48,976 bases of DNA from a virus (lineage: Duplodnaviria > Heunggongvirae > Uroviricota > Caudoviricetes), in the IMG/VR virus record IMGVR_UViG_3300016467_000502, positions 76,785-125,760 of that record. One strand, 5' to 3'. A program made the position numbers and the translations under genes. Numbering within the stretch: the stretch's first letter is position 1; the number at the start of each line of letters is the position of its first letter. Positions 3,001 to 21,000 of this stretch are shown piece after piece. The notes beneath the pieces were generated by a model. The model was not told the DNA's origin, ran no database searches, and saw only the letters and a program-made list of their open reading frames with translations.

Positions 3001-4993
3001 CGCGGTATTCTTTACTCAAGAATGACATTGTGGTATTCTTAATCCATGGCATTACTCCTGCAAATTCTCCCTTCTGGAGCTTTTCCAGTTTCTTCTTGAG
3101 CGCATTAATCTTTGGAATCAAACCTTCCTCTGACTGTCTTTTCACGCCTTCAAAAACTTCTTTGCCCATCATCTTGGCAATCTCCACCATGTTTTCTAAA
3201 CCAATCTCCGCAAAGTTTCCTTCAATACGGGCGTTGGCCATCTCCATAGATTGAAGCTTCTTACTGATCTCTGAGTCTAGACCTAGCTTTTCTTTGTTGG
3301 CTGGATTACGACGGCCCTCATCCACAATCTCTTTCAGCGCCATGATCACACTCCACATCCCACGGGATTTGTTGTAGACCATGCCAATCTGTGTCTTATA
3401 CTTGTTGCGCTCAGAAAGTGAGGTTACGCTCTTAATACCCGCAATGGCCACGTCGCTGGATTCTTCTAGCTGTATAAGGTCATTCTGCAGGTAGTCCAGT
3501 ACCAATGAAAAGTTTACACTGGCTGACCCTTCTTTCATCTTCAGGATGTCATCAAAACTTCTTAGGGTTTCTCTGCGGTCTGCTAGCACCTTTCTGCGGT
3601 CTGGATCTTTATTGTCGCTTTTCTCCAACTCTGCAATCTGAGTCAGTACGTCGTTCAGTTCTTTCTCAACAGCTTGCTTCAGCGCGACCATCAGCTTTTC
3701 CATACCTTTCTCAGAAGGTTCAAAGTCAAAGATGTTGGCTTTCTTCTTGGCCTGCTCAGTCTTGGCAGAACCAGGAAACGGTACCTCTTCGTCAATGATG
3801 CGACGCATGTCTGCAATGCGCTGGTCTGATGTACTTAATTTAGTCTCCAGCTCAAAGTTGGTACCAGGCACAAGTACTCCACGGGCGTAGTCGTAGTAAT
3901 TGTCTTTGCTGAATATGCTCAGGTTAGCAGCACGGTAGCTACCAGAGTCCTGGTCAGTTTCATATAGCAACGCCACAATCTGACTGTTGTTAGTATTTAT
4001 TCCATGTTGTGCCAGAATGTTTTCATAAGTCTTGAGCTGTAGTGTCCACGTGTCATACGCGGTGCGGTACTGTTTCTTTAATAGTCTCAGTGTACCGGCT
4101 TTGCCGTCTACCTTAGTATTCTTATGTGCCAGGTGCAGCATTACAGAATCCATATTCATGTATGTGTCACCCGTGATAGGATCTGTTATTGTTGTTCCGC
4201 TAACCTTTTTGGTCTTGAAATCAAAGATTTCCACATTACCATCAGAGTCAATCAACAGCATATCCAGACGCCCGATTACCATGCTGCCGCTTTTGGTCAT
4301 ACCTGTTACAGTAATCTCAGGCAAAATCATATAGTTGTTGTCTGCCTTAGCTGTAACCTGTATGGCAATACGCGTGGCCAGGTTGTACATCATGTCCTTA
4401 GGAAAATCCTTGACTTCTTTTTTCTTACCCTCTGTATAGAACTTCTCAAAACGTTTGTCAAAGAATTCCCTGGTAAGCACTTGAGAAATATTACGACCTG
4501 TACTAAGCGCGTCCTGCTGTGCAAGCTCAATCACTTCGTGCATAAATATCCCAAACTCCTTGAACTCCTCGTACTTGCTAGGGTCACCTTTAAAATCTGC
4601 AGAACCTAACAGGTTAGATACGCTGACTGTTTTAACAGGTTGCTCCCCGCGTGCAGCTTTATCTATGTTGTCTTCCAGAAACTTCTGGTAAGAACGGTTC
4701 ATGTTAATGAGCACCTGGATTTGCTCCTTCTGTGCATTGGTACCACGCAATAACATTTTTTCCAAATGCTTCTCTTGCTGCTTAGCACGAATCAGTTTAA
4801 ATTCATCACTGGACAGTGAGATTTGTTCGTCTTTCTCCTGAGTGGGAAGGTTCTGCAAAAGCTTGTGTGCGGTAGCCACATCAGGCACCTCAAAGTTGTT
4901 CATTTTGTAGACCGTCAACGCGTCACCCTCGCTGCCAAGTGCGGCAACAAGGGCTTTCCATGAAGGGTCATTAGGGTTAGGGCAGGCGCTCAT
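2..4993 (-). CDS. Giant virion/ejection protein with N-terminal PD-(D/E)XK nuclease domain (partial, >1664 aa, runs off the left edge; absent from the ORF track)
   Basis: Manual translation from ATG at 4993 gives MSACPNPNDPSWKALV... and I found no stop down to position 2 (...DKGDTEIGITVMYAVMN). Nuclease motifs: FGIFMHEVIE, LPEITV, GRLDMLLID (about 4262-4273), EIFDFKT (about 4211-4222), WTLQLKTY. The rest is helical/coiled-coil. It starts 3 nt after the stop of the RNAP gene, the position expected for a crAss-like giant cargo gene. Confidence 0.88.
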   Translation of the reverse strand, partial: MSACPNPNDPSWKALVAALGSEGDALTVYKMNNFEVPDVATAHKLLQNLPTQEKDEQISLSSDEFKLIRAKQQEKHLEKMLLRGTNAQKEQIQVLINMNRSYQKFLEDNIDKAARGEQPVKTVSVSNLLGSADFKGDPSKYEEFKEFGIFMHEVIELAQQDALSTGRNISQVLTREFFDKRFEKFYTEGKKKEVKDFPKDMMYNLATRIAIQVTAKADNNYMILPEITVTGMTKSGSMVIGRLDMLLIDSDGNVEIFDFKTKKVSGTTITDPITGDTYMNMDSVMLHLAHKNTKVDGKAGTLRLLKKQYRTAYDTWTLQLKTYENILAQHGINTNNSQIVALLYETDQDSGSYRAANLSIFSKDNYYDYARGVLVPGTNFELETKLSTSDQRIADMRRIIDEEVPFPGSAKTEQAKKKANIFDFEPSEKGMEKLMVALKQAVEKELNDVLTQIAELEKSDNKDPDRRKVLADRRETLRSFDDILKMKEGSASVNFSLVLDYLQNDLIQLEESSDVAIAGIKSVTSLSERNKYKTQIGMVYNKSRGMWSVIMALKEIVDEGRRNPANKEKLGLDSEISKKLQSMEMANARIEGNFAEIGLENMVEIAKMMGKEVFEGVKRQSEEGLIPKINALKKKLEKLQKGEFAGVMPWIKNTTMSFLSKEYRDKIEERLGPNGKALMNQVTALEIQIKNLEQFLETGVSFEDDDLKKFIEGITDPNSDLHMASSDIFNNSALAGLGNIVSGGELIAGASSSNMIVSAYVQMFKRAQANGQREAMRNLIGLDFDKSRDELLKSMSIGDLNKLVSEWRTTKYVDKDGKVQEKRVLNLTKPMSEAYEQTYREYSSNMRTMNRAVYDANRDYIAAFSLYSKAAKLFSTDPTNTTVEKDMKQKEAAMKTLEKAYLDKKREREREVDNYMTWLQKNASLPYVDAYYRLQQLLPHDIRDEMQKKYLEIQVIMHQVGARNEVLLEESDLDRVREIQVEIKKLKAEAKKRNPDYARYMQEFDAIFEFVPNEGLFKRMYDNAFNRYADDPDMWAKWLKENTVSRPKTEWYEKMAELYEARAAIFGTDDRIQKLMEEKRAIMRPHKDAAGRFNPKYMQPEEIEELDRIEGEIQDIIAERQEDKTAPKLTQDEKQELSTINAQLEMLSVRQLSKYYTELFDDKYRMLDTAYRNMINAENDLAVARGKGDPELVKKAQKDLRFYTVQFDVVESDFEQWYNLNHYQPYESIAKGYDVRGNVTPKAFNEEVVVNPSVHSQYMDTELPHPKFSIKRIRESAKNPAYLKSPDGIPMPKGIIVDANGHYQIERGFENSPNINENYKKLMADPKVFDFYNKLMDMFFNLQKKVEGTKVGYMVPGYAASLVENLAEQGLVGGLQKEWSKFVDKSVRARGEQERIDNVFGDLGGRIRMRYTEQLPENMQTQDAIGAVIKYVLEANFNIAMQDAVPMADNAITYLEMMSGRLKKEIEAGATYITDPVTGKSVAVDMASRQRELDKIIDQLKFERKKFAYGQDDAEDAKTRVLRKRLKQLMAYTAFIRMGFDAASQMKNYISGNVQSWIAAGNFESDHFSQGDFMWAKGKVYGYDGFLANYFKDWGKVSDLSDSTQLYRLINPLQKDYTKYIDDVTGGASRRVLGKVTNISEMGNLIQDKGDTEIGITVMYAVMN

Positions 4994-4996
4994 AGG

Positions 4997-7900
4997 TTAT
5001 AGGCAGGTAATATCGTCAATTATGTCTTCAGTGCTTTTCACTCCACGCATCTTGTCTGCAAAGCGTTTTGCTTCCTGAGCAAACTTTTCAAACGTCATGC
5101 GTTGGCTACTATTTGCATACAAATATCGTAAAGCTTTGTCTGATAGATTCAGGTCAACCAAATCTTTTTCAAGTGATGCTTCCAGATTTCCATCTTCATC
5201 CTCAAAGATTTCAGGTCCTGCAGGTTGTTGTTGAACTTGAGCAGGTTTGTTATTGTCCAGCAACTCAAACTCAATAGCTGCTGCTCCTGTTTTGAATCGG
5301 TCTATTACAAACGCATCTTCTTTGCGCCATCCTTCTTTCTCCCAGGTTCCTTTCCATCCAGGTGTACCTTTAGGGTGAACAGCTGTTACGCGCGCAAGCA
5401 CCTGCTTGGTTGTACCATCGGCAGATGTTCCAAAGTGCTTAATGACGTCCCCTACCTGTATGTTATACTTGGCCATCTCTTTCTCAGAACGAGTGGTCCT
5501 AGTTCTGAAACCTCCAAGAATCATATCAATAGAACGTGCATCTGGTCCTAGTGCCGCTTCTACTTGAGCATTGGCTTTTACCAGGCTTCCGAAACTTTCT
5601 ACTCCACTTACTTTGTTCTGAGGAATGCTTGCTTTGATGTTACTGTTTTCAGTTATGTTTTTAGCAGGTGTTTTAGCCAGCTCCATGATTGCCAGGCGGT
5701 TGCCATCATTCTCCGCCCACTTCATTTGTTTGAAGGTTGCCATAGAAATGATGTTTCCTTTTGGTGTTACCATGTACTGCTGATCTTTGTAGCTTACAAT
5801 CTGCGCGCTTTCAGCCATTGGTGTCAGGTTGCGCTCAGCAACAGATACCTTGGAACCAGCACCTTCTTTGGTTGGGTTATAGATCTGTATGGTTTTGTTG
5901 GCGTTAATCTTTGTGACAATGTATACAGCGTCATTAAACTTCACATAACGACCTGGCTCCAGTGCAATCTTTTCCTTAGGTTCCTTTGGTGTGATGTCTT
6001 TGGTCTCAGTTTTTTCAGCTGTAGGTGTTACAACAGGTTCACTGACTTTGATACCTTTTTTTCTGGCCAAGATTCTGGCAGCCATGCTAGTGTCTTCTGT
6101 CATACCAGAACCTTCCGTCTCATCTACTTCTTCAGGGCCGTCCTCTTCTTCTATTTCTGGTTCAGGTGTGCTGCGCAGGGTTTGCGTAGCTCTGAAGTCT
6201 GTAGGTACATAGTTGTCTTCTGATTCAACAACTGTCTCTACTTTCTCAACCATGATCTCTGCAAACTTGTTGATCTCGTCTGCATCGAATCCCATAGGAG
6301 AGATGGCTTCTGCCATCAGGTTGCTTGGCATCAGGGTGTAGCGTGCAGCTTTACCAGACGTGGCAAATGATGTAGACTTGCCAGACAGCGTGTTAAATAC
6401 ATTCTCTCCAATTGTACCGCTTACTTCGTCTCCAGCTCCCTGTAACATGTACACAGAACCGTCCTGGAATTTAATCACCATAGGAAAAGCAAACTGTCCT
6501 TCGTTGCCAGTCTCAATACCAAACATGCCGGCAAGGCGTGCAATGGCAAAGTCATTCAGACCATAGATACCCAGTGCTTCGTCAGTCATGTTGATGACAA
6601 ACTCTGCACCCAGTTCTTTTTGTCCCATAGGCAATACCAGGTTTCCGCGTGAAGGTGTAGGTATAATCTCACCAGACTTACCAAACATAGCATTAATTAC
6701 ATTGGTGATTGCTGCACGCTTGTCGTCCGCGCTCATACCTTCAGGTACAGGCAATGTTTGCATCAAACGCTTCTTCTCACTGATATTCAAATTGAATCTG
6801 GTCTTGATGCGGGTATTGTTGGGTTCCTTGATAGCGTTATACACCATGTTGGTGAACAGCATATCAAATGCGTCATATACTTTATCATTGTCCGTCGCGC
6901 CAAAGAAGTCTTGAATCATCTTCTCAAATGCGTCAGGATCATTGTAAGTTGTCTTCAGGGTATTGACAAACAAGTCAATGTTATTGCTCAGTTCTTTTCT
7001 GAATACACGTGGCAGGAAGTTGTAGAACATGTTCTTCTTGTTTCCCATACCTCCGCGTGCCAGTTCATGGTAGAACAGTTTCTTTAAAAACAGTTTACCC
7101 TCCTGGTCATTCATCAAGCTCATTACGTCGTTGTACACACCACTAGCCTCATCGCTCTTCAACTTGACCGTGTTGATCATCTTGATAAAGCGCATAGGCA
7201 GTTGTTCCTCCCCAATCTGTGCAATCTGGGATTCTACCACTTCTTCTTTCAGGTAGTTCAGAAACTTGTTGTTAGGGTACTTGGCCTGGAAGCTGCGAAG
7301 CTCCTCACCCAGGGTGTTGGTGAACCAGAACTCGGCAGTGAACGTGTCACGCAACGCCTGGTCCTCACGATCGATCAAACTCTGGATGTATGAATCTGCA
7401 GACTTGCGGCTGCCAGGTAATGTGTCTCTCAGACGCTTGATACCTACATAGCCCACAATTGTCTTGGCAATATGACTCTTATCCATGAACAGTTCCTTGA
7501 ACACGTTGTTAATCTGTTTAAAGAACGGACCGCGCTCCAAGAACAGGTTAGATGACTGTTGTGCAAGGTCAGTACCCATTTTGAACAGTTCGTTCCACAC
7601 CTGGTCTTCCAGTAATGGCTTCATTGATTCTTCTGTAAAGATGCTTTCTCCACTCATCATGGAAGCCATGTTGCTGTATATCTTATCAAAGCTAGTGAAC
7701 TCAGGATTCAGCGCCTTTAGCATGTTAATCATAGAACCGGCAGTAGCAATGTCAAATGACTGTGCAGCCTGCTGTTCGTACATGTTTAACAATACCCACT
7801 TTTGAGCATCTTCTGAAAGAACTGCATCAGACTTTAATCCTTTAACAGTGTATCCAATCTCACCAATCGTCAGCTCATTGTTGGACATGCGAGTGTCATC

Positions 7901-10900
7901 TAGTTTCATGCCACGCTCCAGTGGGGTGCTAAACTCAATAACCAGCTTGCTCTTGTTGATCCTTGGATCAAAGAACGGCATGTCCTCATCAAACAATCCA
8001 GCTTCTGTCAGCTCTTGGAATACCTCTGGTGTCAGTAGTTCTGCAGCCGCCTTTCTGACTTCAGAAGACAGTGACGCAAATTGTTTATCTGTAGTAGAAC
8101 GTAATGCGCGTTGTGCGGCAATGACTGTTGCACTGGCTTGGGCAATTTCAGGAATGAAGTTGAACCCGAGCGCAAACTCAGGACGCAGACCCACACCGAT
8201 CATGGCCAGGGTAACACCTGTGTTCACATCGTTCATCTTCAGTGCAGATGGAATAGGCTCTTTGGCACCATCGGCAAACATACCCAGTACGTTACCAATC
8301 AGTGCAATTACGCGCTGCTTTTCTGCGTTGATAGCGCCAAACTTATGAAGGCGGTTCCAGTTCTTGCCAGTCTTGTCAGAATGGAATTGCCATACGGGTT
8401 TTTCCAACTCCAGCTCATACCAGCTGGCCATTGCCAAAAACTTGTTCATGTTGGCGGTGATACCAATACCATCTTTAAAGATACCATTGTCAGCTTTAGA
8501 GCGGATCATGGAGGTGATGGTATACTGGTTAGTTTTCAGACCTGCTTTCTTCAGGTCAATGCCAAATTCTTTAGCAAGCTGTTTAAAACGATCCACACTG
8601 GAACGTTCTTTCTTATACAAGTAGTTGAATATCTGTTCGTTACCCAGGATAGCCTGGCGAGCATTCAGGTTCTGGTTTTGGTACTTGTCCGCCACCAGGT
8701 CTTGCATGAACTCATGCTTCTCAAACTCCTCAATGTTGATTGGAATGTCAAACTTGCTCAGTACGTCAAACATTGCCTTTACCTTGGCAGCAGCATACAT
8801 GAACTTCTCCGCTGTAGAAGCAGCTTCCCAAGATTCTTCTTGAAGTGGGCGGATGTCTTTGATAGTATCAGCTAGTTGTTGCTTTACACCACGGATCTCA
8901 TCAATGGCTTTGCTGCGCTTTTGCTTGATGTCCTTCAAGCTGTTCACACGCTTCTTGCCACCCTTCTTGGTTTCACCCAGTGCAATCTGGTCTTTCAACT
9001 CATCCAGGTAATCACCCAACTCATCTCTTTGTTCAGACAGCGCCTCAATGTCTGCCTGCATTTCTTCAATGCGGGCATTAATCTGAGAAAGGTTGATGGT
9101 CTTGACAAAGTCATCGGTGGTAAATCCAAGCATCTTCATGTACTTGAACACATCAGAATCAGAGTCCAGATCAAACGTACCTTCTTCTCTGATTTCACGC
9201 AAACGACTGGCAATCAAGTCTTTGAATTCATCCTTCTTAGTGATGAAGTGCATGAACTCCACAAACTTACCTTCGCGCTCGTTGCGGTAATTCTTATAGT
9301 CACCATACTTCACAAACTGGCCGTTCATATTCTTGTAGTAGGAGTACGCCTGTGCATACAGGGTATCTACGTCAAAGTCAGAACCGGCAAGCATGTGTAC
9401 AAAGTATGGTACAATGATACCGTTGAGGTTGGAGCTGTCCATGTAGTCCACTGCTTTCAGGATTACCATGGAACGTTTGTCCTCCGTAGGAATACGAGTG
9501 GCAAACAACCTGGTCAATTCCTGTTCAAAGAACTCGCGGAATTCTGGGTTGTCCCTGAATGGCTCAGGCAGGATACATTCTACCATGTAGATGGTGCGTC
9601 CTGTAGGTTTGCCGTCTTTGTCCAACTCTGGTTCTGACGTCACACCCAGCTTTCTCACACCCACGTTAGGATATGCCGCTTTGTTTTTAGCATACTCCTG
9701 GGTCTTGATCACTTCGCCTGTGTCCTTGTTGTAAAGAACGTCATAACCAAACTGGCTAATGTGGATAAACTTACCTCCTGAACCTTTTTCATCGGTCACA
9801 TGCTTAGAGTACTGAGAAAAGAAGTAGTACTCCAGCATACTGCGGATCTCTGGCAGGTTGGGGCTGTACACCGGTTTACCCGCTGCGTCCAGTTCAAACA
9901 TCTCCAGCATTTGCTGGGGTGCTCCTTGAACCGCCAGGTTCTCACGGATCATGTTATAGATTTTGCTCACCTTGAAGTTACCGGCCTCCACAATGTCATT
10001 GACAATGTCTTCCGCTGCTTCATAGGTTTCTTTGGATACACTCTTGTCGTTAGCCAGAGCATCCAGCACCAAACGGGCGTTTTGCTTGTGACGCTCTGTC
10101 ACAGCTTTGGTACCCTTGAAATCATTGATGATGTCTCCTAACTTGCTAATTTGTGCAGCAGCTTCTGAAGACACTTTATCCTGGTTAGCAATCTTGGATA
10201 GCTCTTTTTGACGAGCTAGTGCATCAGAAGGTACCATGCCTCTCATAATGTTGGTCAGGTACAACAAACGCGCGCGGGTAGCGTCACGCAAACTGTCCTG
10301 GTAATCTGCTAACAATCTATCAGCCAGATTATCCAAGAACTCACGCTCTGACTTGTTAAGCTTGCGGTTATCCGCAATCTCAATCAGGTCAGCCAGTTTC
10401 TGAATGTCTGCCGGTAACAGCATCTTAGCCTGTACAGAAAGCTTAGCCTTATCTTTTACACCTGAAGTTTCCACCTGCAGGAACTTATATCTGTTGTCTA
10501 CGTCTACAGCAATAAAGTCAAAATTTAAGTACCCTGCTTTCTTGGGAGCTCTCAATACATTGATAGGCAAACGTGTTGCGTTCTTAGAAGCTTCCGCGTC
10601 CATGAACTGGTCAATTTGGAAGTACTCCATAGCGTTCAGGATTTCATGCGCCCTTACCCTGTGAGGTAGTGGCTCATAAAACTCATGAATCATTCTTACC
10701 GTATCCTGTATCTGAGAAAACGTAGCCTTAGAATCTTCTCCTGTTTTTAACTGACGCTGATACTGTTTACGAAGCTCATACACTTTTGACCACATGGTAT
10801 GCAGCATGTCATATACGTCCTGCTCTGTTTCTTCAGTACCGTCAAAGTACTCGTCTTTGATGCGGCTAACATCCAGGCGGTCGAACATGTTTTCAGACTG

Positions 10901-13900
10901 CTTGTGGTAGCTGTGACGTGAAGCCGTGATGGTCTTCTTGGAGTTGTTTACCACCTTCATCGCCTGAAGGGTCATAATCTCTGACTCTGTCAGTTTGCGA
11001 TAGTGCTTGGCAATCAACAAGTCATGCACCTTGCTGGTCATACGACCTAAAGTTTCGTGCATGTCCATTTGGTGCATTAACAGAGATACAGACTGACCGT
11101 CAAAGATCTTCTGCAGCATACCTGCATACTTACCTCCAAAATCTTCAGCACCATTTTCTTCTGCAATTGCCCTTTTAAAGTCCTCTGCCAGAATAACTTT
11201 CAGTTCTGGAGTAGTCATAGGGTCCTCAGCAATCTCTTCTTCTGAGAAGTAAGGCCCATACTCAGGATGATCCTCATGGATGAATCCTTTGATGGTGTCT
11301 ACTACAGCAGCGCGGTGCGTTCCTTCCTGCATGCTGTCACCAGCAGCAATATACTTTTTGTTACGCTTAACTGCATCTTGCGCACTCTTTACGTTCATGG
11401 CCTGGTTGCCATCAAATATATCGTTGAAGTGTAACGCGTTAGTCCAGTTGTTATAGAAATAATCAGCCAGTACTGCCTCCCAATTTAAGCGGGAAACTGC
11501 TGTACCTTTTACGTTACCATAAATCTCCATCAGGTTAACCGGTTTCTGGTAACCCACTTTAAGTTTAGAAGGCAACAGGGTGCTAAAGAAATAGTTAACC
11601 GGAGCAGCGCCCTCAGCTGTATTATCTTGCGCGCTCTGGATAATGTTGTTATTTTCCAGTACTTTCAAAAACGTATTAAACTCCTGCTGTGCATATTCAT
11701 CTAAATACGAAGGTACGCCACCTAGATCAAGTTCATCAAACTCAATTCCATCCTGAGCAGCTTCTACAAGCGCCTCTTCAATAGCAGGATTGGCTGCAAA
11801 GAAATCCGCAAGCTTGTGAAATTTATAAGCTCTCAACGGCTTACCGTCTTTGTCAGTAAACTGAACTTTATCATTTGCGTCCAGTCTGCCGTTAAACTCT
11901 TTGATAAACTCATCAGATGTTTGGCTTTCAAAAAGCTTTTTAAACTCCTCACGACGACCAAACTCTTTACGCATGCTTTCGTACTCTTGGCGAATAACAC
12001 CAATCAGGTCTTGCACAATCGCTTTGTATGTTCCAGGTACACCTTCAATCTTTACTTTTTTCACACCATTCTTATCAGCAAACTGACGGTACAAAGATGT
12101 AACCAGGAAGTTGGTGTTAGATGACTCCAATTGGTGGAAAGAACGACGGTATGTTTGTATAGTAACCTTGCCATCCTTTTCATTGGAGGTTTCCTCCATG
12201 CGGCTTAAAAACGATGTAAAGTTCAGGATGTGCAGAGTGTGTTCATCCAAATCACCAAACGTTCTACCGTCTAGTATAGTATCTCCCACTTTACCTTGCA
12301 CTCCACCAAACATCTCCACGCGCATATTGTTTAACAGAAGCTTGACCATCTTGGTCATCTCGTCTGTCTTACCTTCCATGACACCGCCCAACAAATGGTT
12401 GTTTGTAATAAAGTCTTTCAGGTATGACTCATAGAATTGGTCTTCTGCCAGTGAAGCCTCCAGCCCTTTTTGACGCACGTCTTCTGCAGTAATAATCATA
12501 GGTGAATACTTGATGTATTCATAGATTGGCTTACCTTCTGCGTTGTATACAACAGAGCTGAACGCGGTCGGGTCATACTTGACCATGAACTTGGCAGCCT
12601 TACGCAATATGCTGTTAAAGCTTTTTACTTCTGGAGACGCTGTACTTTCATCATCCAGCATATTTTCAAACATCTTTGGAGTGGCACCTTCTGTTCCAGC
12701 AGCTGCTTCCAGGATGTTCTTCAGATTGGTGAAGAATGTTTTCTCCAGGTATTCTTTCTCATTGGCAAACTGGCGATCCAGCTCGTATTGCTCCAACGTC
12801 TTTTCATCCAGCTTAGAGATGGTTTTCTCATTCTCCATTTCCTGGATAGCAATCATAGAGAACCGCAACATGGACTTAGGGATCTGCAGACCAATAGTCC
12901 ACAGACTCTTGTGCAACTCGTCCACCATATTGTCCAGGCTTCTCTGGCTCTTGTCACCAGTGAACAGCGTCTCTGCTGTAGAAATCTTGGTAGCAATCTG
13001 GATAGCATTCAACAGAGCTTTGCGGTAAGCATCGCTTCCACGCTCAGACTTCTGAGTCAGGATCATGCGCTCTACAAGCCTGTTCTTTTTATTATTGATG
13101 TCCTTATACTGAATCTTGTCAGAAATGCTGAACTTGGGCGTAGTGTCCTTGTCCACCATCTCCTCAATGTTGTCCATGTCTGGCGCCTCAAAGTACTGCA
13201 TGTTGAACATCACGTAACCAATACGTGTTCCGTGCAGCACGTTCAGAACCATTCGGTACATCTGTGCGTTGGTCATGGGTATAGACCCATTGTCCAACAG
13301 TGTCAATTTCTTAATCTCGTTGTACACTGCCTCCAGGTCCATGGCTTCATTGATCAGACCATCGTCGTACCAACGCTCATACACCATTTTCAGGGTAGGC
13401 AGGATTTGCATGGGCTCTTTGTTGGCAGCGATCTTTAACAGCGTGGGGGTCAGCTTACGACCATCCACAATCGCAGGAACCAGGATACCATACACCGGGT
13501 GGACATAATCCCTTCTGATGGTGCTCAAGAATTTCTTAAACTCACCGGGCAAGCTGTCCATACGGTTAATCTCATTGATGGCTTTCTCAAAATCTGCAGA
13601 CTCTGGGTTCTCCTCGCGGTTTTCCGCGTTCTCGTCCAGCGGTTTAGCCACAGCATTCATTGCTCCTTCCATGTTCTCTACACTGATAGGATTGGTAGAG
13701 CTGACACTAAACTCATTCAGGCGCTTACGCACCAAACCCATAAGGGTTGCCATAGACTCAGAACCATCTGTGTTGCTTCCGTTATCCAGGAACAGTGCGT
13801 CGTTTTCTTCCTTACCTGTTGTGTTAATATCATACACCTGTGTTTCCACACCGGCTTTCAGGTCACGCATACGCTGACCCAGGATGAAACGCATCTGGTT

Positions 13901-16900
13901 GTATTTAGGCAGGAATTCCTTTTTGATGTCCTCATGGAACTTAGGATCTGCCTGGCGCAGCAACATGTCTATGTTGTATACTTCATTCAGTAACACAGTG
14001 GCTGCGTCCTGAAACTTCTCTTCAAACTTTCTCTTAGAGTTGTCTGCCAACATCTGTCGTACGACCATGTTCACAGCCTCTTTCTCATATTCGTCCAGCA
14101 ACGTAGTCGCCTGGCTCATCACACGCCCTGTTGGCGTCATCACCACTTTTCTCAGACCCTTAATCTCAAAGGCTGCTTTGCCATCATACGCGGTACCAGA
14201 GATGATGCTTTCTTTGTACTTACCGGTAGCAATGTCACGGTAAGTGGTTTCAATCACATCGCGGTTAGCCTTAAACATTGTGATCAGCTTCTTCAGCAGC
14301 TCAAACAACTTGGCCATAATACCTTTAGGTGCAGTAGCACGGCGGCTACGCATGTAACGCTGGAACCCGTCTGCCAGGATCTCCTCAGCAACCAGGTCCA
14401 TCATTTCCGCCTTGTTGTACACAAAGTTGCGTACACGGGCAAACTCAATCAGGTTTGCATCCGTAAACTGGTCAGCGTATTTAGGATTGTCAATGATGTT
14501 ATTCAGCAGCTCTCTACGCTGTGTGTCTGTCATCAAGTAACGGAACACGCCGTGGAACGCTTCGTGGTAGACAATGCCTTTGCTCAGCATTGATTTATTC
14601 AGGTGCAGTACTTTGTCTTTGAACAGACCCAGTACAGTGCCATCAATTCTCATCAAGTCAACCACGCCTTCCATGTCAGAGATCTCAATACCAAACTGAC
14701 CCAGTGCCTCACGGAACCAGGCTACTTCAGACTTAATATCCTGCATGGTTGCAGCTTCATACTCATCTGCAATCTTAAACGCCTCATCTTCCATTTTAGG
14801 AATAGCGCTTGACGGTCCTGACGGATTGGCTTTTGCTTCCTCACGTTGGTATTCTTCAACAATGCGCTTAGCTTCATCAAGCGTAGGTATATACTCTGCA
14901 ACAATACCATCCTCATTATGCTCAATATCGTATGTACCGTTGATCTTAGCAATTCTGTATGCACCAATGGTTACGCTTGGCTCTGGTGCATTCATCGCGT
15001 CAATAGCATTAGTAAGCTCTTCACGCATCTGGTCCAGCATGCTATTTAGTATAGCTTCTGTTTCTTCATCCGGCATAGCCTCCATCTGCTCTGCTACCAC
15101 GTTCATGTTATCCATGAATCCGTTGTAGATCATTGCATAGGTTGGGTTATTTACAATTTCCTGCTGCTGAGCATTCAGCTCGTTTACAGGAATACCGTCT
15201 GCCAGTGCTTCAAACGCTTCTATGATAACATCTGCGTTTACTACAGCTGCATCAGCGGTGATAGTAGTCACAGGCTCCACGATGTTTACGGGAGGTGCTG
15301 TGATGGAAGTACCTTGTCCAGATGGAGAGGTACGGTCTACCACTTCTTTGGTAGCGGGGGACATTGCTGTTCCTGCCTTGGCTGTGATCAGGGTTTCTGC
15401 GCGGTTGGAGTGCTTAACCGTAAAACGCTTGGAATTTCTGTAAAACGTAGGCGTAGATGCTCCCTTCTTGCGATTGATGCCAACGTGTGGCCATTTGTTG
15501 CCATCGTTATCTTTATCTACCACAAGGTACTCCAGGTTGAACCCTTCATTAGGAAACGTATACGTGCTTCTAAGCGCAGCCTCCACTTCAGGATGCTCGC
15601 CCATTCGTTCTTGTAACGGTTTGACAATCAAGTCAATCATGAACTGCGAGAACTTCTCTCGCGTCTCGTTTAGATAGTCCACCAAGTCTTGAGCAGACTC
15701 TGTCAGGCTGTTGGTCTCTTCCATTACAGACAGTGCTGTATAGAATCCCATACGGCCCTCGACGGTGCTTAAGTCATAAGCCTTCAGGGAAGGATTGTCT
15801 GCAAGCACCTGCTGTATCTTTTTACCTTTAGGTCCCAACTCTTCTGCCAGACCAATCAAGCGAGCTTTGAAGGCATCGCTAAACGCAAACTGAAATTTGC
15901 TACGCTGCTCTAACATTACTTTTAGAGGGCTGGTGTTGCTCTTGTCTTTAGGAACCAGTTCAAATTTCAGCGTACCTTTAAAGAATTCAAGATTGAGGTA
16001 GAATGGTCCGCGTGCACCGCTAAAGCGATACATGCTGTTAAACGCTTGAGCAGCCTGAGTCATTTGACCTTTGGCAGTGCGTTCTTTAGTGCTGACCATG
16101 TCTGCGACCATGTTGATGAAATCCACAAACCCTTCATTGGTCTGCATGGGTTTCTGATCTTCCAGGGTCAAGTAGCTAGTAGGCTGTCCGTCCTTGAAGC
16201 GCACCACAATCATGGTATTCTTCTGACTGTACTTATTATCGCTAAACAGATTCTCTTTAATGAACTGGTCAATGTTAGTGATGCCTAGCTCATACTCAAA
16301 GTAATCTTCTTCGCTATATAAACTATCACCAACCTTGATACGTTCATTAGCAGCCAGTACAGAGTTAGGCATAAAGAACGCAGTATCACGACTACCTACG
16401 CGGTAGAATACAAAAGGTACTTTTCGTTTGGTGGTGCTTAGTACATTCTCATCATCATCTATGGTAGCTACTTCCAGTTCTAGGCTAAGAGAGCTGTCTG
16501 TTTCCATAAACTCTTCCAGGCTTGGATTTTCCCTGGTGCGGCCCTGTGACATGTCAAAGCTCTCAAAGAACTCTTCTGTGAAATCCACAGAGTTGATGCC
16601 TTTTGTGAACATGTCTTCCATTGCTGCACCATGCTTAGCTTTGAATTGCTGCAATTGGTTATACGACTGCATGAGTGCAGCCATATCTGATTCAGTCAGT
16701 TCAACTGGTCCAGCCACACCATTGAGCAATGCCAGCTTCTGGAATCGTTCGCGGTGTGCAGGATTATTGAAGTCTACCTTCTCAGTAGTGTTATTATCAT
16801 ATACAAACACGTAGTTATCCAAGGTCCACAGGTTGAACAGGATGTTCTGACCGTCTTCCATCAGCAACTCCCCTACCAACTGGAACTTGTTTTCTTCTTG

Positions 16901-17998
16901 GTTAGGACGGGCCACAGAAAGGACCACACCGCCGGGTGTGTTCTTCAGATAGCTGATCTGCCCAGTGCTCTCAAATGTTTCATGCTTGCGGTTGGCCAGT
17001 CCTGCCATTTCAGGATTGGTGCTGGCTAACTCCTGGATACGCTCCATACGCGCCTGGGCAATGCCTGGTCTTACAGCATGAATTCTGATACGGCTCATGG
17101 GGTTTTCCATGGTTGCCATCTCTGCTCTTAATTTATCTGCGTCTTCTCCAAATGCTGCCTGAATCTTCATCGCAGAATATAGCATTGTTGGTGACACACG
17201 CTCTTCTGCGGAGTTGCTGTCAAACGGAAGTGGTCGTCCTGCTTTATAATTGCGGATGTCTTCTTTGCTTAACGCAATCATTTCACCCTTGTCGTCAATC
17301 ATGTACAGCACACCATCTTCAATGAATCCCTCTACAAGCTCGCGATTGTTTAAAGAAATCAAAACATTGTTTAACTGAGCTTCAATAGGTAAGTCGTTGA
17401 TATCTACATAGTTAGTAGTTTGCAACAATTCATCTAGTGCCTCAGACATGTACTTACGCATAGTGGCGTTGTACGCAGGATCTTCTGTAAAAGAATCAAT
17501 GATTTCTGTAACGCTCTTGCGGACCATGTCCACATAGCTTCTGCGGTCTTCACCAGTTACCCCATTGGCAGTAAAGAACTGTCTGAGTAAGGTGATGATA
17601 CCTTTATCACCAAATAGATCACGACCACGTTCAAATTCAGTCTGCGTAGACATACTATCCAGGCGGTCCTCAATAATCTTAGCCGTAATAGTTGGAGCAG
17701 CCTTTGTCTTATACAAGCTGTTCATGAATTTCATGTAGGCCTTGGTGTCGCCCAGCAGGTGCACCGCACCCTTAACATCCGCAGCCTTTCCAGGCTCGTA
17801 GAATTTGCTGTCAACACCTGCAAGACCATCATAGATGTAGGCCAGCTGGTGGATAGATAATTTTTTCTGCTCAGGAGTTAGATCGCTGTCAAGCACAAAG
17901 CGAACAGCGTTGTCATAACTGCGGTAAGCAGTAGGATCAAATTTGATCAGTTTTTGTACAAAAGAAATGTACTTGCCAGTTAGAATATCACAGGCCAT
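4997..17998 (-). CDS. Virion-packaged two-barrel DNA-dependent RNA polymerase polyprotein (4333 aa) with zincin (HExxH) and ASCH-like domains
   Basis: Catalytic DxDxD motif AGSDFDVDT (DFDVD at 9365-9379), preceded by RIPTEDKRSM. Beta-like basic motifs NNSKKT and KLSVQAK. Zincin motif VYHEAFH (14552-14566) with downstream AEEILAD. C-terminal ASCH-like segment. Size and context match crAss-like virion RNAPs such as phi14:2 gp66. Confidence 0.9.
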   Translation of the reverse strand: MACDILTGKYISFVQKLIKFDPTAYRSYDNAVRFVLDSDLTPEQKKLSIHQLAYIYDGLAGVDSKFYEPGKAADVKGAVHLLGDTKAYMKFMNSLYKTKAAPTITAKIIEDRLDSMSTQTEFERGRDLFGDKGIITLLRQFFTANGVTGEDRRSYVDMVRKSVTEIIDSFTEDPAYNATMRKYMSEALDELLQTTNYVDINDLPIEAQLNNVLISLNNRELVEGFIEDGVLYMIDDKGEMIALSKEDIRNYKAGRPLPFDSNSAEERVSPTMLYSAMKIQAAFGEDADKLRAEMATMENPMSRIRIHAVRPGIAQARMERIQELASTNPEMAGLANRKHETFESTGQISYLKNTPGGVVLSVARPNQEENKFQLVGELLMEDGQNILFNLWTLDNYVFVYDNNTTEKVDFNNPAHRERFQKLALLNGVAGPVELTESDMAALMQSYNQLQQFKAKHGAAMEDMFTKGINSVDFTEEFFESFDMSQGRTRENPSLEEFMETDSSLSLELEVATIDDDENVLSTTKRKVPFVFYRVGSRDTAFFMPNSVLAANERIKVGDSLYSEEDYFEYELGITNIDQFIKENLFSDNKYSQKNTMIVVRFKDGQPTSYLTLEDQKPMQTNEGFVDFINMVADMVSTKERTAKGQMTQAAQAFNSMYRFSGARGPFYLNLEFFKGTLKFELVPKDKSNTSPLKVMLEQRSKFQFAFSDAFKARLIGLAEELGPKGKKIQQVLADNPSLKAYDLSTVEGRMGFYTALSVMEETNSLTESAQDLVDYLNETREKFSQFMIDLIVKPLQERMGEHPEVEAALRSTYTFPNEGFNLEYLVVDKDNDGNKWPHVGINRKKGASTPTFYRNSKRFTVKHSNRAETLITAKAGTAMSPATKEVVDRTSPSGQGTSITAPPVNIVEPVTTITADAAVVNADVIIEAFEALADGIPVNELNAQQQEIVNNPTYAMIYNGFMDNMNVVAEQMEAMPDEETEAILNSMLDQMREELTNAIDAMNAPEPSVTIGAYRIAKINGTYDIEHNEDGIVAEYIPTLDEAKRIVEEYQREEAKANPSGPSSAIPKMEDEAFKIADEYEAATMQDIKSEVAWFREALGQFGIEISDMEGVVDLMRIDGTVLGLFKDKVLHLNKSMLSKGIVYHEAFHGVFRYLMTDTQRRELLNNIIDNPKYADQFTDANLIEFARVRNFVYNKAEMMDLVAEEILADGFQRYMRSRRATAPKGIMAKLFELLKKLITMFKANRDVIETTYRDIATGKYKESIISGTAYDGKAAFEIKGLRKVVMTPTGRVMSQATTLLDEYEKEAVNMVVRQMLADNSKRKFEEKFQDAATVLLNEVYNIDMLLRQADPKFHEDIKKEFLPKYNQMRFILGQRMRDLKAGVETQVYDINTTGKEENDALFLDNGSNTDGSESMATLMGLVRKRLNEFSVSSTNPISVENMEGAMNAVAKPLDENAENREENPESADFEKAINEINRMDSLPGEFKKFLSTIRRDYVHPVYGILVPAIVDGRKLTPTLLKIAANKEPMQILPTLKMVYERWYDDGLINEAMDLEAVYNEIKKLTLLDNGSIPMTNAQMYRMVLNVLHGTRIGYVMFNMQYFEAPDMDNIEEMVDKDTTPKFSISDKIQYKDINNKKNRLVERMILTQKSERGSDAYRKALLNAIQIATKISTAETLFTGDKSQRSLDNMVDELHKSLWTIGLQIPKSMLRFSMIAIQEMENEKTISKLDEKTLEQYELDRQFANEKEYLEKTFFTNLKNILEAAAGTEGATPKMFENMLDDESTASPEVKSFNSILRKAAKFMVKYDPTAFSSVVYNAEGKPIYEYIKYSPMIITAEDVRQKGLEASLAEDQFYESYLKDFITNNHLLGGVMEGKTDEMTKMVKLLLNNMRVEMFGGVQGKVGDTILDGRTFGDLDEHTLHILNFTSFLSRMEETSNEKDGKVTIQTYRRSFHQLESSNTNFLVTSLYRQFADKNGVKKVKIEGVPGTYKAIVQDLIGVIRQEYESMRKEFGRREEFKKLFESQTSDEFIKEFNGRLDANDKVQFTDKDGKPLRAYKFHKLADFFAANPAIEEALVEAAQDGIEFDELDLGGVPSYLDEYAQQEFNTFLKVLENNNIIQSAQDNTAEGAAPVNYFFSTLLPSKLKVGYQKPVNLMEIYGNVKGTAVSRLNWEAVLADYFYNNWTNALHFNDIFDGNQAMNVKSAQDAVKRNKKYIAAGDSMQEGTHRAAVVDTIKGFIHEDHPEYGPYFSEEEIAEDPMTTPELKVILAEDFKRAIAEENGAEDFGGKYAGMLQKIFDGQSVSLLMHQMDMHETLGRMTSKVHDLLIAKHYRKLTESEIMTLQAMKVVNNSKKTITASRHSYHKQSENMFDRLDVSRIKDEYFDGTEETEQDVYDMLHTMWSKVYELRKQYQRQLKTGEDSKATFSQIQDTVRMIHEFYEPLPHRVRAHEILNAMEYFQIDQFMDAEASKNATRLPINVLRAPKKAGYLNFDFIAVDVDNRYKFLQVETSGVKDKAKLSVQAKMLLPADIQKLADLIEIADNRKLNKSEREFLDNLADRLLADYQDSLRDATRARLLYLTNIMRGMVPSDALARQKELSKIANQDKVSSEAAAQISKLGDIINDFKGTKAVTERHKQNARLVLDALANDKSVSKETYEAAEDIVNDIVEAGNFKVSKIYNMIRENLAVQGAPQQMLEMFELDAAGKPVYSPNLPEIRSMLEYYFFSQYSKHVTDEKGSGGKFIHISQFGYDVLYNKDTGEVIKTQEYAKNKAAYPNVGVRKLGVTSEPELDKDGKPTGRTIYMVECILPEPFRDNPEFREFFEQELTRLFATRIPTEDKRSMVILKAVDYMDSSNLNGIIVPYFVHMLAGSDFDVDTLYAQAYSYYKNMNGQFVKYGDYKNYRNEREGKFVEFMHFITKKDEFKDLIASRLREIREEGTFDLDSDSDVFKYMKMLGFTTDDFVKTINLSQINARIEEMQADIEALSEQRDELGDYLDELKDQIALGETKKGGKKRVNSLKDIKQKRSKAIDEIRGVKQQLADTIKDIRPLQEESWEAASTAEKFMYAAAKVKAMFDVLSKFDIPINIEEFEKHEFMQDLVADKYQNQNLNARQAILGNEQIFNYLYKKERSSVDRFKQLAKEFGIDLKKAGLKTNQYTITSMIRSKADNGIFKDGIGITANMNKFLAMASWYELELEKPVWQFHSDKTGKNWNRLHKFGAINAEKQRVIALIGNVLGMFADGAKEPIPSALKMNDVNTGVTLAMIGVGLRPEFALGFNFIPEIAQASATVIAAQRALRSTTDKQFASLSSEVRKAAAELLTPEVFQELTEAGLFDEDMPFFDPRINKSKLVIEFSTPLERGMKLDDTRMSNNELTIGEIGYTVKGLKSDAVLSEDAQKWVLLNMYEQQAAQSFDIATAGSMINMLKALNPEFTSFDKIYSNMASMMSGESIFTEESMKPLLEDQVWNELFKMGTDLAQQSSNLFLERGPFFKQINNVFKELFMDKSHIAKTIVGYVGIKRLRDTLPGSRKSADSYIQSLIDREDQALRDTFTAEFWFTNTLGEELRSFQAKYPNNKFLNYLKEEVVESQIAQIGEEQLPMRFIKMINTVKLKSDEASGVYNDVMSLMNDQEGKLFLKKLFYHELARGGMGNKKNMFYNFLPRVFRKELSNNIDLFVNTLKTTYNDPDAFEKMIQDFFGATDNDKVYDAFDMLFTNMVYNAIKEPNNTRIKTRFNLNISEKKRLMQTLPVPEGMSADDKRAAITNVINAMFGKSGEIIPTPSRGNLVLPMGQKELGAEFVINMTDEALGIYGLNDFAIARLAGMFGIETGNEGQFAFPMVIKFQDGSVYMLQGAGDEVSGTIGENVFNTLSGKSTSFATSGKAARYTLMPSNLMAEAISPMGFDADEINKFAEIMVEKVETVVESEDNYVPTDFRATQTLRSTPEPEIEEEDGPEEVDETEGSGMTEDTSMAARILARKKGIKVSEPVVTPTAEKTETKDITPKEPKEKIALEPGRYVKFNDAVYIVTKINANKTIQIYNPTKEGAGSKVSVAERNLTPMAESAQIVSYKDQQYMVTPKGNIISMATFKQMKWAENDGNRLAIMELAKTPAKNITENSNIKASIPQNKVSGVESFGSLVKANAQVEAALGPDARSIDMILGGFRTRTTRSEKEMAKYNIQVGDVIKHFGTSADGTTKQVLARVTAVHPKGTPGWKGTWEKEGWRKEDAFVIDRFKTGAAAIEFELLDNNKPAQVQQQPAGPEIFEDEDGNLEASLEKDLVDLNLSDKALRYLYANSSQRMTFEKFAQEAKRFADKMRGVKSTEDIIDDITCL

Positions 17999-18028
17999 AT
18001 CAGGTTAGCTATTATCAGAGGTACTGGA

Positions 18029-21000
18029 TTAGAAGCATGCATGTATATCACGAAGGATATCTACAAGGTCTGCTTTCGTCACCGGTGCCTCAGTTTTTGT
18101 AGACGTGTCCTCCTCTACAAATTTACTAATTTCCTGACTATCTTGGTTAGCTTTAGCTTTAAATTCTGCAAGTTTCTCATCCAGGTCTACAAAATCTTGG
18201 AAAGTTAAACTTGCGGCAGTAGCTGTAGTTGTGGTCTCAAACAGCGGTACTTCCTCGCCTGCAGGAGATTCAATCACTACAGGAGCATCTGCTGCTTCTT
18301 GTGTAGATCCTTTCTTCAGGATGCGAGTAGCAATCGCTTTCAGCGTGCTCTTTCCTTTGGCAGTCTTACTAAACTCGTCCAGGCTTTCAAACGGGGTTTC
18401 ACGCTTGGCATTGGCTTTTTCCATAGCAGCCCGCGCTTTCTGGTGAAACTCTGATTTCTGTGGCAGGCTTGCCCCTTCCATGAAACGATACACTACGTCT
18501 AGCTCGCTGCGAGTACGATCCAACGATTGTTGCAAGGCGTCTGCCTCTTCCTGAGTAAGTGGTTCAGGTGTCACAGGTGTGCCTGCCGTGTCTACGACAT
18601 TGGTACCACCGGCCACCTCTTCTGTATGAAAAGATTCACCACTGGCTTCGCGGGCGGCTTGCTGACGCTGTTGACGTTTATTCTTCAGCAATGCTGCAGC
18701 ACTATTGGCTCCAGTATCCCCAGCGCCTTCTGTTTCGTCCTCTTCCTCTGGTTCAGTCTGGTCTTCAGCTGCAGGTTCTGCTACAGGTACGGGTGCCGGA
18801 GCAGGCGGAACTTCTTCAGGTTGTTCTTCCGTGCTTTCTGGCGTAGTAGATGCTTGTGCAATGATGCGATGAGGCTCTTGCGTGACCTGGATCTGTAACT
18901 CAGGGTACTTCTCAGAAACGGCTTGGATGGCATCCAGAATTTGTTGGCGGTCCTCAGGAGATGCGTTTTGTAATCCTGTAGCAATATGCACACCTCCGTT
19001 TAAAATGTCTTCTTCAATTTGCTGAAGCATTTGATCTTCACCTTCATTGACCTGTTCAGGTGTGCCAACAGGCGCAGCCCCGTTTAGTTCTGCAAGCTTT
19101 GCTTCTACAATGCTGCGGTTTTTAGACCACAGAGCCTGACCGTTGTTGTCATAGAAGTAATCATTTTCTTCAGAATTTAATATACCAAATCCCAAAAATC
19201 GATCCTCAACCAGTACATACTTTGGTTTAGTAGTTTCTGTTGCAGGTGTTTCTTCCTCCTCATCTTGATCGTCTTCTTCTTGGTCATCAGGCTCAGCGGG
19301 TGTAGATTCTGTAGAAGCAGGTGTAGCTTCTGAACTAACAGGCGTTTCTGTCTGCGGAGTAGCTTCTACTTCTGCAGACTTATAATCATTCACAATTTCA
19401 TCAATATCTGACTTGTACTTGTCATACACCTCCTGCTCTCTGATAGTCAAGGTAATGTTGTCAAACACCTTGTTGGCAATGCGAATCAGTGCTTTGAATC
19501 CAGGCTTCTTGTCTTGCTTGAACTCCATGTACTCTTCATCACTCAAGTCGGTATATCCATCCATGCTTACATTTCTGCGATACACCTTAGCCATTACCTG
19601 CTTGAGATCATTGCTAATTTTCTCTATTTGCTCTTGCGCATAGCGGTTCATCTGAACACCAGCGTTAGGGTCAAGCACAATAGTTTCTAAGTTTTTATAG
19701 GCATCGCTGTTAAATGTAGCATCAGCAATTTCTTGACGTATGCGCTCGCGCTCCTGTTTCTCCTGGTCGCTATCACCAAATATATTCATCTGGAATACAG
19801 CAATCATCCACTGCTTCTGCGCCAGTTCTTCTACGCTGTCCAGGTACTGCATCACCAGGTACTTGAAGTTACCGTCTGTCATACGATACAGCATCATCTC
19901 AAAGTTCTCCTTGTTGAACAGTACGTCCACCGCTTTCATATACTCCTTAGCGTCCTTATCCAGGCGCATGTAGTCAATGATTTTCTGGAAGGAATCCTGG
20001 TAAGCAGAGGTCAGGTTCATATCTACCTGCAGACCAGCTTGCTTATTCTTTGTCTGCATCAGGCGAACAAAGTTCATAAACACCTCAGGGTCTTGCATGT
20101 CAAACTCGTCGTCTTCCTCAACCTGGAAGCTTTCCGGTCTGGTCGATCCGTCAGCTTGTGTGCGTTCGCCACTCATTGTACGGTAGGTTTTACGACCAGG
20201 CTTACGCTTGCCAATAAACTCATCCAGTGCGTCTTCTTCCACTTCCTCCTCCATGTCTTGACCATTGGCGTCTTTCACGGTTTGAGTAGTAGTTCTTTTT
20301 TTCCACCAGGATGTCCACAAATCAAGTTCTTTGAGCTCATTCTTTTTATCAGCAATCTGATCTTCCAGCTTCTTTTTTTGATCAGGGGTAAGTCCCTCTG
20401 CATTCAAGTTCTGAGTAAGAATGTTGATATCCGCTGCTATGTTTCCAATCTCAGCTTGCAGGGCCATTGGATTGGTCATTATGCGCAGGGCGTAATCTGC
20501 TGAATCTGCAATGTGAGAAATAGAGCGAATGTCATTAGCCAACTCCTGTACACGCTTAACGGTCATCTCACCTTTGATTGCATTGTACGCAATTACAGAA
20601 ACAGCTTCATCTTGCACTTGACGCATTACCGCTGCTACATATCTGTCGCGAGAACCTTCCTGGTATCTAAATGGATCTGCCAGTGTTCCTACTTTTCTTT
20701 TTACTCCCTCAATAATCTCAGAATACTTTTTGACGTCGCGAGCTACAGAATCACTAAACTCAACAGCATTGGCATACTTAGTATCTTCTAATTTTACACC
20801 CATCATCTTGCCAAACTCTTCATTAGTCATTTCCATACCCATATTGCGTATGGCACTTTCAAGAGCTTTAACAGAGTTGGTACGTTGTGCTGCTAGTACG
20901 GCGTGCAGTAGTGCGTTATCCTTACCGTTCTGGAACTCATACTGCTTACCTTGCGTGGCAGCAGTTGCCATTTCTTGAGCGGCATCAACCTGCGCAGCAA

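What the first reader, a model, noticed from the sequence alone, without database searches (positions are those of the whole stretch)
4982..18037. Head-to-tail terminal cysteines on otherwise Cys-free giant ejection proteins
Seen in sequence: the 1659-aa protein has a single Cys, at the penultimate position (...LVDILRDIHACF, codon 18035-18037). The next gene (RNAP, 4333 aa) begins MAC (17990-17992) and ends ...EDIIDDITCL (5003-5005), and I found only one other Cys in it. The next giant begins MSACP (4982-4984), with no other Cys in my translation of its 1664 in-window codons. The two C-termini also share a [TS]xxD[LI][VI]D..I.C[FL] amphipathic helix. Inference: each C-terminal Cys may pair with the N-terminal Cys of the next protein, by disulfide or a shared metal site. 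This would chain the three giants in gene order so that they are packaged stoichiometrically or threaded sequentially through the tail during ejection. I am not aware of this being described, but cannot check the literature.
Basis: partly seen in the sequence, partly recalled or inferred. Interest (0 to 1): 0.78.

Follow-up and report, generated by a model that had tools for sequence, protein, structure and literature searches.

The report
Terminal cysteines chain crAss cargo proteins
Three giant proteins that this crAss-like phage probably packs and injects, with its RNA polymerase in the middle, have almost no cysteine except one at each end that faces the next protein; relatives keep this pair wherever the genes are separate and drop it wherever they are fused, which suggests the proteins are tied end to end into one thread, a link I found described in no paper.

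Summary
Confirmed. Proteins A (1659 aa), B (RNA polymerase, 4333 aa) and C (2011 aa, completed from the genome) hold 5 Cys in 8003 residues. Four sit at the facing ends; the two free ends have none. Homologues keep this: 106/107 A tails, 120/120 B tails, 112/120 B heads (the rest look 5'-truncated) and 39/40 C heads, against 0/107 A heads and 0/40 C tails. So do cultured crAss001, phi14:2 and DAC15. Fusions lose exactly the pair at the fused joint, and a triple fusion has no Cys at all. Extra 'link' genes carry a Cys at both ends; an intron-caused break carries none. Best reading: a head-to-tail disulfide replaces a peptide bond, so the cargo is packed and ejected as one thread and probably released by reduction in the host cytoplasm. 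The pairing is inferred from comparison only; no bond was measured. I found no paper describing this. This scan has noted the same feature before, in at least 38 other genomes.

The parts
18029..23008 (-). Protein A, 1659 aa, first link; positional equivalent of crAss001 gp47 and phi14:2 gp67; no Cys at its free N-terminus
   Evidence: homology to gp47 only transitive, through L148 and Lbo-JY46; a direct profile search missed gp47 and gp67
18035..18037 (-). A C1658, its only Cys (tail of joint 1)
   Evidence: 106/107 homologues have a Cys in the last 4 residues
4997..17998 (-). Protein B, 4333 aa, virion RNA polymerase (gp50/gp66 family), middle link
   Evidence: DFDVD motif; tblastn hits to annotated crAss RNA polymerases
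17990..17992 (-). B C3 (head of joint 1)
   Evidence: 112/120 homologues, positions 3-7
9365..9379 (-). Catalytic DFDVD motif of the RNA polymerase (residues 2874-2878)
9575..9577 (-). B C2808, the one internal Cys, about 70 residues before the catalytic motif; not part of the terminal pattern
   Evidence: 52 internal Cys at this offset among 120 homologues
5000..5209 (-). B tail module (residues 4264-4333); in relatives the same module ends a separate small link protein
   Evidence: predicted helical in the link model
5003..5005 (-). B C4332 (tail of joint 2)
   Evidence: 120/120 homologues have a Cys in the last 7 residues
1..4993 (-). Protein C, last link (2011 aa in the genome, 1664 codons in the window); gp49/gp65 family; no Cys at its free C-terminus
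   Evidence: family profile hits gp49 at E 8e-41 and gp65 at E 7e-20
4982..4984 (-). C C4, its only Cys (head of joint 2)
   Evidence: 39/40 homologues; invariant column
4826..4993 (-). C head module (about residues 1-56); missing where C is fused to the protein before it
4184..4570 (-). PD-(D/E)XK nuclease-like domain carried in protein C (residues 142-270)
   Evidence: Pfam PF12705, E 5e-7
23015..25684 (-). 889-aa protein upstream (gp46-like by position); zero Cys; lies outside the chain and marks its boundary

Best explanation
The RNA-polymerase cargo block of Crassvirales behaves as one long polyprotein that may be encoded in one to several pieces. Where it is cut into separate genes, the last residues of one piece and the first residues of the next each carry one Cys, and these two join, most likely as a disulfide, in place of the missing peptide bond. 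SHOWN: the residue pattern, its conservation, and its joint gain or loss with gene splits and fusions. INFERRED: (1) the pieces are made reduced in the cytoplasm and dock through short tail and head modules during head filling; (2) the bond closes on oxidation after lysis, as for the disulfides seen elsewhere in the crAss001 particle; (3) the roughly 8000-residue thread A-B-C passes the narrow tail and the periplasm in fixed order and 1:1:1 ratio, with Cys purged elsewhere so that host Dsb enzymes cannot scramble it; (4) cytoplasmic reduction frees the polymerase without a protease.
For: Polarity: Cys on all facing ends, on none of the free ends (0/107 A heads, 0/40 and 0/57 C tails). Cultured phages: phi14:2 gp67 C1797 only, gp66 C3 and C2179 only, gp65 C3 only; crAss001 gp47 C2339, gp50 C5 and C2404, gp49 C5; DAC15 likewise. 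B+C fusions (p-crAssphage, crAss002, cr110_1, Lbo-JY46) keep joint 1 and have no Cys at the new free end. A+B fusions (Fpv3, cr50_1, cr1_1, cr4_1, L046, L135, L148, L158, L171) keep joint 2 and have no head Cys; several have one Cys in over 4000 aa. Sister pair: L076 is split with both Cys; L077 is a triple fusion with 0 Cys in 4256 aa and lacks about 54 tail and 53 head residues. Link genes of 137-946 aa have a Cys at both ends; those tested end in the module that ends B here. Negative controls: passenger genes lack terminal Cys while their flanking giants keep them; the group I intron break in cr108_1 has none. A rough tree shows these architectures interleaved, so the rule held through repeated changes. 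Only 3/111 joints have a third Cys nearby; His is near 1 tail and 14 heads. Inter-subunit disulfides exist in the crAss001 virion (PMC10172136). Cys depletion of ejected proteins is known in Schitoviridae (PMC11445570). Isolated gp66, purified with DTT, has untraced residues at both ends (10.1101/2020.03.07.982082), so its two Cys probably do not hold its own fold.
Against: No bond has been measured. The cytoplasm where heads are filled is reducing, so the bond cannot easily drive packaging itself, and this genome shows no thioredoxin or glutaredoxin. Tail sequences differ widely between clades, so there is no single docking code. Fully fused L077 shows that release by reduction is not needed everywhere. 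L150 is Cys-rich and its last Cys is 26 residues from the end. Homologue counts share ancestry and are not independent events.
Confidence: 0.7

Rival explanations
1. Same head-to-tail pairing, but through a metal ion (for example Zn bound by two tail and two head Cys from two copies of the joint) rather than a disulfide. This could form in the reducing cytoplasm during packaging.
For: It removes the redox problem. Several copies of each cargo protein could fit in the head (for example 6; PMC10172136). Many tails are rich in Asp and Glu.
Against: Each end has one Cys; a third Cys occurs in 3/111 joints and His near 1 tail and 14 heads. No other ligand column is conserved near the Cys.
Confidence: 0.12
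2. The pairs are real, but they form only during passage through the periplasm (host DsbA) or serve to hold the ejected complex together afterwards, not to thread it in order.
For: The comparative data show who pairs with whom, not when or why. The periplasm is oxidising, and these proteins are expected to cross it (PMC10172136).
Against: Other disulfides are already formed in purified crAss001 particles. A bond made in the periplasm would be reduced again in the cytoplasm, where the polymerase works (general knowledge).
Confidence: 0.09
3. Each terminal Cys pairs with the same Cys of another copy of its own protein, B closes on itself, or the Cys anchors the protein to a third virion part.
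For: Symmetric disulfides occur in crAss001 (gp57 47-47). Fusion removes termini under any model.
Against: It does not explain why free ends never carry a Cys, why each split carries exactly two, or why A+B fusions keep the B tail and C head Cys, which a 'B ring plus A-C' scheme would leave unpaired. No locus has a tail Cys at joint 1 without a head Cys (0/92).
Confidence: 0.05
4. Other thiol chemistry (ligation or splicing into a true peptide bond, lipid or other modification), or stop-codon read-through that joins the frames.
For: Both joints in this window are in frame (gaps of 30 and 3 nt).
Against: In relatives joints fall in all three frames (55/32/34), and gp47 can lie on the other strand. 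The Cys sits at positions 2-6 from the start and 1-10 from the end, too loose for splicing or a fixed enzyme motif. No intein or protease family was hit in B or C.
Confidence: 0.04

Closest known systems
RNA-polymerase-associated cargo block of Crassvirales: crAss001 gp47/gp50/gp49 (PMC10172136) and phi14:2 gp67/gp66/gp65 (gp66 = PDB 6VR4; 10.1101/2020.03.07.982082)
   Same: Three giant genes, DFDxD polymerase in the middle, C in the gp49/gp65 family, sometimes fused into a polyprotein; the cultured phages show the same terminal Cys.
   Different: Neither paper links the three proteins by a bond. The polymerase preprint never uses 'cysteine' or 'disulf'. The atlas passages read report disulfides in tail and capsid-vertex proteins and leave ejection order to packing and unspecified interactions.
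Cys-free ejection proteins of Schitoviridae (N4 gp50-52, DEV gp71-73; PMC11445570)
   Same: Giant virion polymerase, ejected through the periplasm, with Cys strongly purged.
   Different: There Cys is suppressed throughout and no conserved terminal Cys is reported; the polymerase is unrelated.
Disulfide-linked two-chain proteins released by reduction, such as A-B toxin chains and viral envelope subunits (from my own knowledge, not tested here)
   Same: A disulfide stands in for a peptide bond and can be cut by cytoplasmic reduction after translocation.
   Different: Those usually come from one cleaved precursor and have one link. Here separate genes, even on opposite strands, would form an ordered chain of several links whose joints move in evolution.
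Structural disulfides of the crAss001 tail hub, rings and gp57 (PMC10172136)
   Same: Inter-subunit disulfides in the same kind of virion.
   Different: They stabilise the outer shell; they are not described as terminal or polar, and they are not on cargo.

Membership tests
Crassvirales RNAP cargo block | Giant protein with the DFDxD catalytic motif, related to crAss polymerases | tested here: met
   DFDVD at 2874; tblastn to p-crAssphage gp44 and others, best E 6e-14
Crassvirales RNAP cargo block | Downstream partner in the gp49/gp65 family | tested here: met
   profile of C homologues hits gp49 at E 8e-41 and gp65 at E 7e-20
Crassvirales RNAP cargo block | Upstream partner in the gp47/gp67 family | tested here: inconclusive
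   no direct hit; transitive through L148 and Lbo-JY46, E about 1e-8, plus position
Crassvirales RNAP cargo block | Located behind the muzzle-like and C1/C2-like genes of the virion module | tested here: met
   virion-protein PHROG hits on the 1911-, 373- and 224-aa genes upstream; same layout as; C1/C2 identity by position only
Crassvirales RNAP cargo block | Present in the virion and ejected | not testable with these tools
   found by mass spectrometry for crAss001 and phi14:2 orthologues, not for this phage
Head-to-tail disulfide chain (proposed) | One Cys at each facing end, none at free ends | tested here: met
Head-to-tail disulfide chain (proposed) | Pair lost at fused joints and present at extra splits | tested here: met
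Head-to-tail disulfide chain (proposed) | Covalent S-S bond between tail and head in virions | not testable with these tools
   needs non-reducing gels and disulfide mapping
Self-contained Cys/His metal site (zinc hook or finger type) | Three or four conserved Cys/His ligands per joint | tested here: not met
   two Cys per joint in 108/111; His rare; a site shared by two copies is not excluded
Split intein / protein trans-splicing | Intein domain and fixed nucleophile at the splice junction | tested here: not met
   no intein Pfam hit up to E 1 in B or C; Cys position varies
Read-through polyprotein | Joints consistently in frame on one strand | tested here: not met
   frames 55/32/34; gp47 on the opposite strand

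The most novel reading that the evidence does not exclude
Crassvirales and related phages build a multi-gene covalent polyprotein. Terminal Cys pairs act as reversible substitutes for peptide bonds, so that about 8000 residues of cargo, including the polymerase and exchangeable passenger links, are pulled through the tail as one ordered thread and unlocked by the host's reducing cytoplasm.
Probability: 0.5. Interest if true: 0.93.

Novelty: categorically new. Interest (0 to 1): 0.84.

Why it matters
[quoted passage not shown] This finding names four residues in cultured phages (phi14:2, crAss001, DAC15) and makes the question testable with a non-reducing gel. It explains why the block can split and fuse so freely, and it gives a rule for telling chain members from passenger genes. 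It also suggests a redox switch for releasing the polymerase. The proteins belong to a known family; what is new is the proposed end-to-end link, for which I found no description. My search covered only open-access papers and bioRxiv; the Nature version of the phi14:2 paper and the 2018 family paper were not held.

Tried and rejected
I did not try to find which rows pass; I resent only the window's own two fragments without alignments. Result: no verdict, score 0.08 against a mark of 0.34. It is not used as evidence either way. Fold of a link protein (L027; mean pLDDT 79, pTM 0.53): Foldseek gave no PDB match at E<=0.001 and one unnamed viral match at 7e-4, so no known fold was assigned; no distances are returned, so head-tail contact was not judged. 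Pfam and PHROG gave nothing for A and B. Nucleotide search of the phage collection found nothing, and the PDB sequence search with B missed 6VR4. No thioredoxin or glutaredoxin in this genome; the Erv1 search had no working control and says nothing. Read-through was considered because both joints here are in frame, and rejected. IAS virus is unclear at one break because of ambiguous bases. L063, L041 and L074 look like frameshifts or insertions and were not interpreted. Literature searches and term searches in six papers found no mention of terminal Cys in these proteins.

Full report
OBSERVATION. The window is the last 49 kb of a complete 125,760-base phage genome. Three giant genes lie in a row on the minus strand: A (18029-23008, 1659 aa), B (4997-17998, 4333 aa) and C (from 4993; 2011 aa when completed from the genome). 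A has one Cys, second from its end. B has C3, C2808 and C4332. C has only C4. The completed C has no Cys at its C-terminus, and A has none at its N-terminus, so the pattern is polar: facing ends have a Cys, free ends do not. Cys is 0.062% in the three giants and 1.18% elsewhere; chance placement is about 1e-9 or less (windows chosen after the fact). The literal helix pattern in the finding matches neither tail.

WHAT THE GENES ARE. B carries DFDVD at 2874 and matches annotated crAss polymerases. A profile of C homologues hits crAss001 gp49 (E 8e-41) and phi14:2 gp65 (E 7e-20). A is tied to gp47/gp67 only transitively and by position. This is the polymerase cargo block of Crassvirales, whose members are found in virions of crAss001 and are expected to pass the tail partly unfolded (PMC10172136).

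CONSERVATION. Among 120 B homologues, all have a Cys in the last 7 residues and 112 in the first 7. The 8 without are mostly short and begin in mid-sequence, as if cut off. Internal Cys is 0.019%. Several clades keep the Cys on tails that are otherwise unlike one another. Of 107 A homologues, 106 have a tail Cys (the exception is annotated as partial) and none a head Cys, with one internal Cys in 170,000 residues. Of 40 C homologues, 39 have a head Cys and none a tail Cys. Cultured phages follow the rule. phi14:2 gp67, gp66 and gp65 hold four Cys in total, all at facing ends. crAss001 has gp47 C2339, gp50 C5 and C2404 (plus one internal) and gp49 C5. DAC15 is alike. In crAss001 and DAC15 the A gene is on the opposite strand, so the order is functional, not transcriptional.

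NATURAL EXPERIMENTS. I read the gene chains in 120 distinct loci. Between B and C, 111 of 121 neighbouring pairs have both tail and head Cys. Nine of the ten exceptions arise where a small passenger gene without terminal Cys sits in between and the flanking giants keep theirs; the tenth is L150, Cys-rich, with its last Cys 26 residues from the end. The free end of C has a Cys in 0 of 57. Upstream of B, 63 loci have both Cys. In 18 only the head Cys is seen, and the upstream neighbour is an unrelated small gene, as in crAss001, where A lies on the other strand; A itself was mostly outside these loci. In 11 neither is seen, and none has a tail Cys alone. Those with neither are A+B fusions where tested: gp47, gp67 or A homology lies at their N-terminus in L046, L077, L135, L148, L158 and in cr1_1, cr4_1, cr50_1 and cr108_1, also L142 and L171. 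They keep the second joint; Fpv3 gp32 has one Cys in 4287 aa. B+C fusions (p-crAssphage gp44, crAss002 gp33, cr110_1, cyanophage Lbo-JY46) keep the first joint and have no Cys at the end; in crAss002 and cr110_1 the head Cys is third from an internal Met, so the annotated starts are probably too early. L076 and L077 are sisters at 44% and 34% identity. The first is split with a Cys on each side; the second is a triple fusion of 4256 aa with no Cys, and the roughly 54 tail and 53 head residues are gone. Many relatives insert a link gene of 137-946 aa between B and C, with a Cys at both ends. In those tested, the last 60-70 residues match B 4264-4333 of this window, so one module is part of B here and a separate piece there, and the extra split carries its own pair. 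A tail ending in Cys plus one hydrophobic residue precedes 37 of 40 heads with a Cys-Pro start, in line with matched modules, though shared ancestry contributes. In cr108_1 the polymerase is broken at its catalytic motif by a group I intron (Rfam RF00028, E 7e-21), and that break has no terminal Cys. A rough FastTree of the polymerase core, without support values, shows split, linked and fused forms interleaved. The direction of each change is not settled.

MECHANISM. Fusions fix the partners: fusing A to B leaves the B tail and C head Cys in place, and fusing B to C leaves the A tail and B head, which is what head-to-tail pairing predicts and what a ring of B plus an A-C link does not. I put physical tail-head pairing at about 0.9. 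On chemistry, each end brings one Cys, a third is rare (3/111) and His is rare, which fits a 1:1 disulfide. Inter-subunit disulfides exist in the crAss001 particle. Purging of Cys from ejected proteins is known in N4-like phages and has been ascribed to passage through the periplasm (PMC11445570), so the retained Cys are kept against that pressure. Isolated gp66 has only these two Cys, was purified in DTT and has untraced residues at both ends (10.1101/2020.03.07.982082). The weak step is timing: heads are filled in a reducing cytoplasm and this genome shows no thioredoxin or glutaredoxin. I therefore infer non-covalent docking first and oxidation after lysis. Threading in order and release by reduction are inferred, not shown. 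I give the disulfide chain 0.7, a metal bridge 0.12, a bond made only in the periplasm or after ejection 0.09, symmetric pairing 0.05 and other chemistry 0.04.

NOVELTY. The proteins are members of a known block; that they can be fused into a polyprotein is stated in the phi14:2 preprint. I found no paper that mentions the terminal Cys or a covalent link among them (term searches), within the limits of an open-access library. A June 2026 paper still calls the relations among these proteins open (PMC13434306). This scan has reached the same reading on other DNA: 38 findings in at least 38 genomes held my search words, and the eight shown agree. I had formed and tested the reading before looking, and I count those notes neither for nor against.

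VERDICT. A real, widely conserved feature of Crassvirales and related phages, strongly supported by comparison, unproven in chemistry, and cheap to test in cultured phages. Interest 0.84.

Noticed in passing
window 34927-37050, 31627-34923, 29375-31618, 25684-29271 (minus); genome 73493-75691: Five other large proteins of this module each have exactly two Cys as a pair (5, 13, 3, 42 and 6 residues apart). crAss001 gp45 (C390/C398) and phi14:2 g069 (C369/C378) also have one close pair. Possibly a single internal disulfide each.
   Followed up: partly
window 23015/23008, 18029/17998, 4997/4993: Three successive gene joints are all in frame (gaps 6, 30 and 3 nt). Not a rule in relatives, so probably chance.
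   Followed up: yes
window 4184-4570 (minus): Protein C carries a PD-(D/E)XK nuclease-like domain right behind its head module: a nuclease that would be co-injected.
   Followed up: no
L027:14413-14991, L033, L042, L045, L072 (link genes): Link proteins between B and C vary from 137 to 946 aa between their two terminal Cys; this may be a slot for exchangeable injected cargo. Their middle parts were not annotated.
   Followed up: partly
P0041, P0059, P0086, P0109 and others: Polymerase homologues carry variable inserted domains (PF00075 RNase H, PF08719, PF13532, PF18760, PF25176) while keeping both terminal Cys.
   Followed up: no
L181:16790-17108: A group I intron interrupts the cr108_1 polymerase inside its catalytic motif.
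   Followed up: yes
L078, L085, L147 (between B and C): A passenger gene of about 160 aa without terminal Cys sits between the giants in one clade; it looks ferritin-like by eye, untested.
   Followed up: no
L150:5639-17420, L154, L156: A few lineages have Cys-rich cargo (28 Cys in 2568 aa in L150) yet keep the head Cys; in L150 the tail Cys is displaced. Possibly relaxed selection or a different host envelope.
   Followed up: partly
L011:7303-20807 (Cellulophaga phage phi17:2) and L010:8723-21629 (cyanophage Lbo-JY46): The rule also holds in phages not filed under Crassvirales, including one with a cyanobacterial host.
   Followed up: partly
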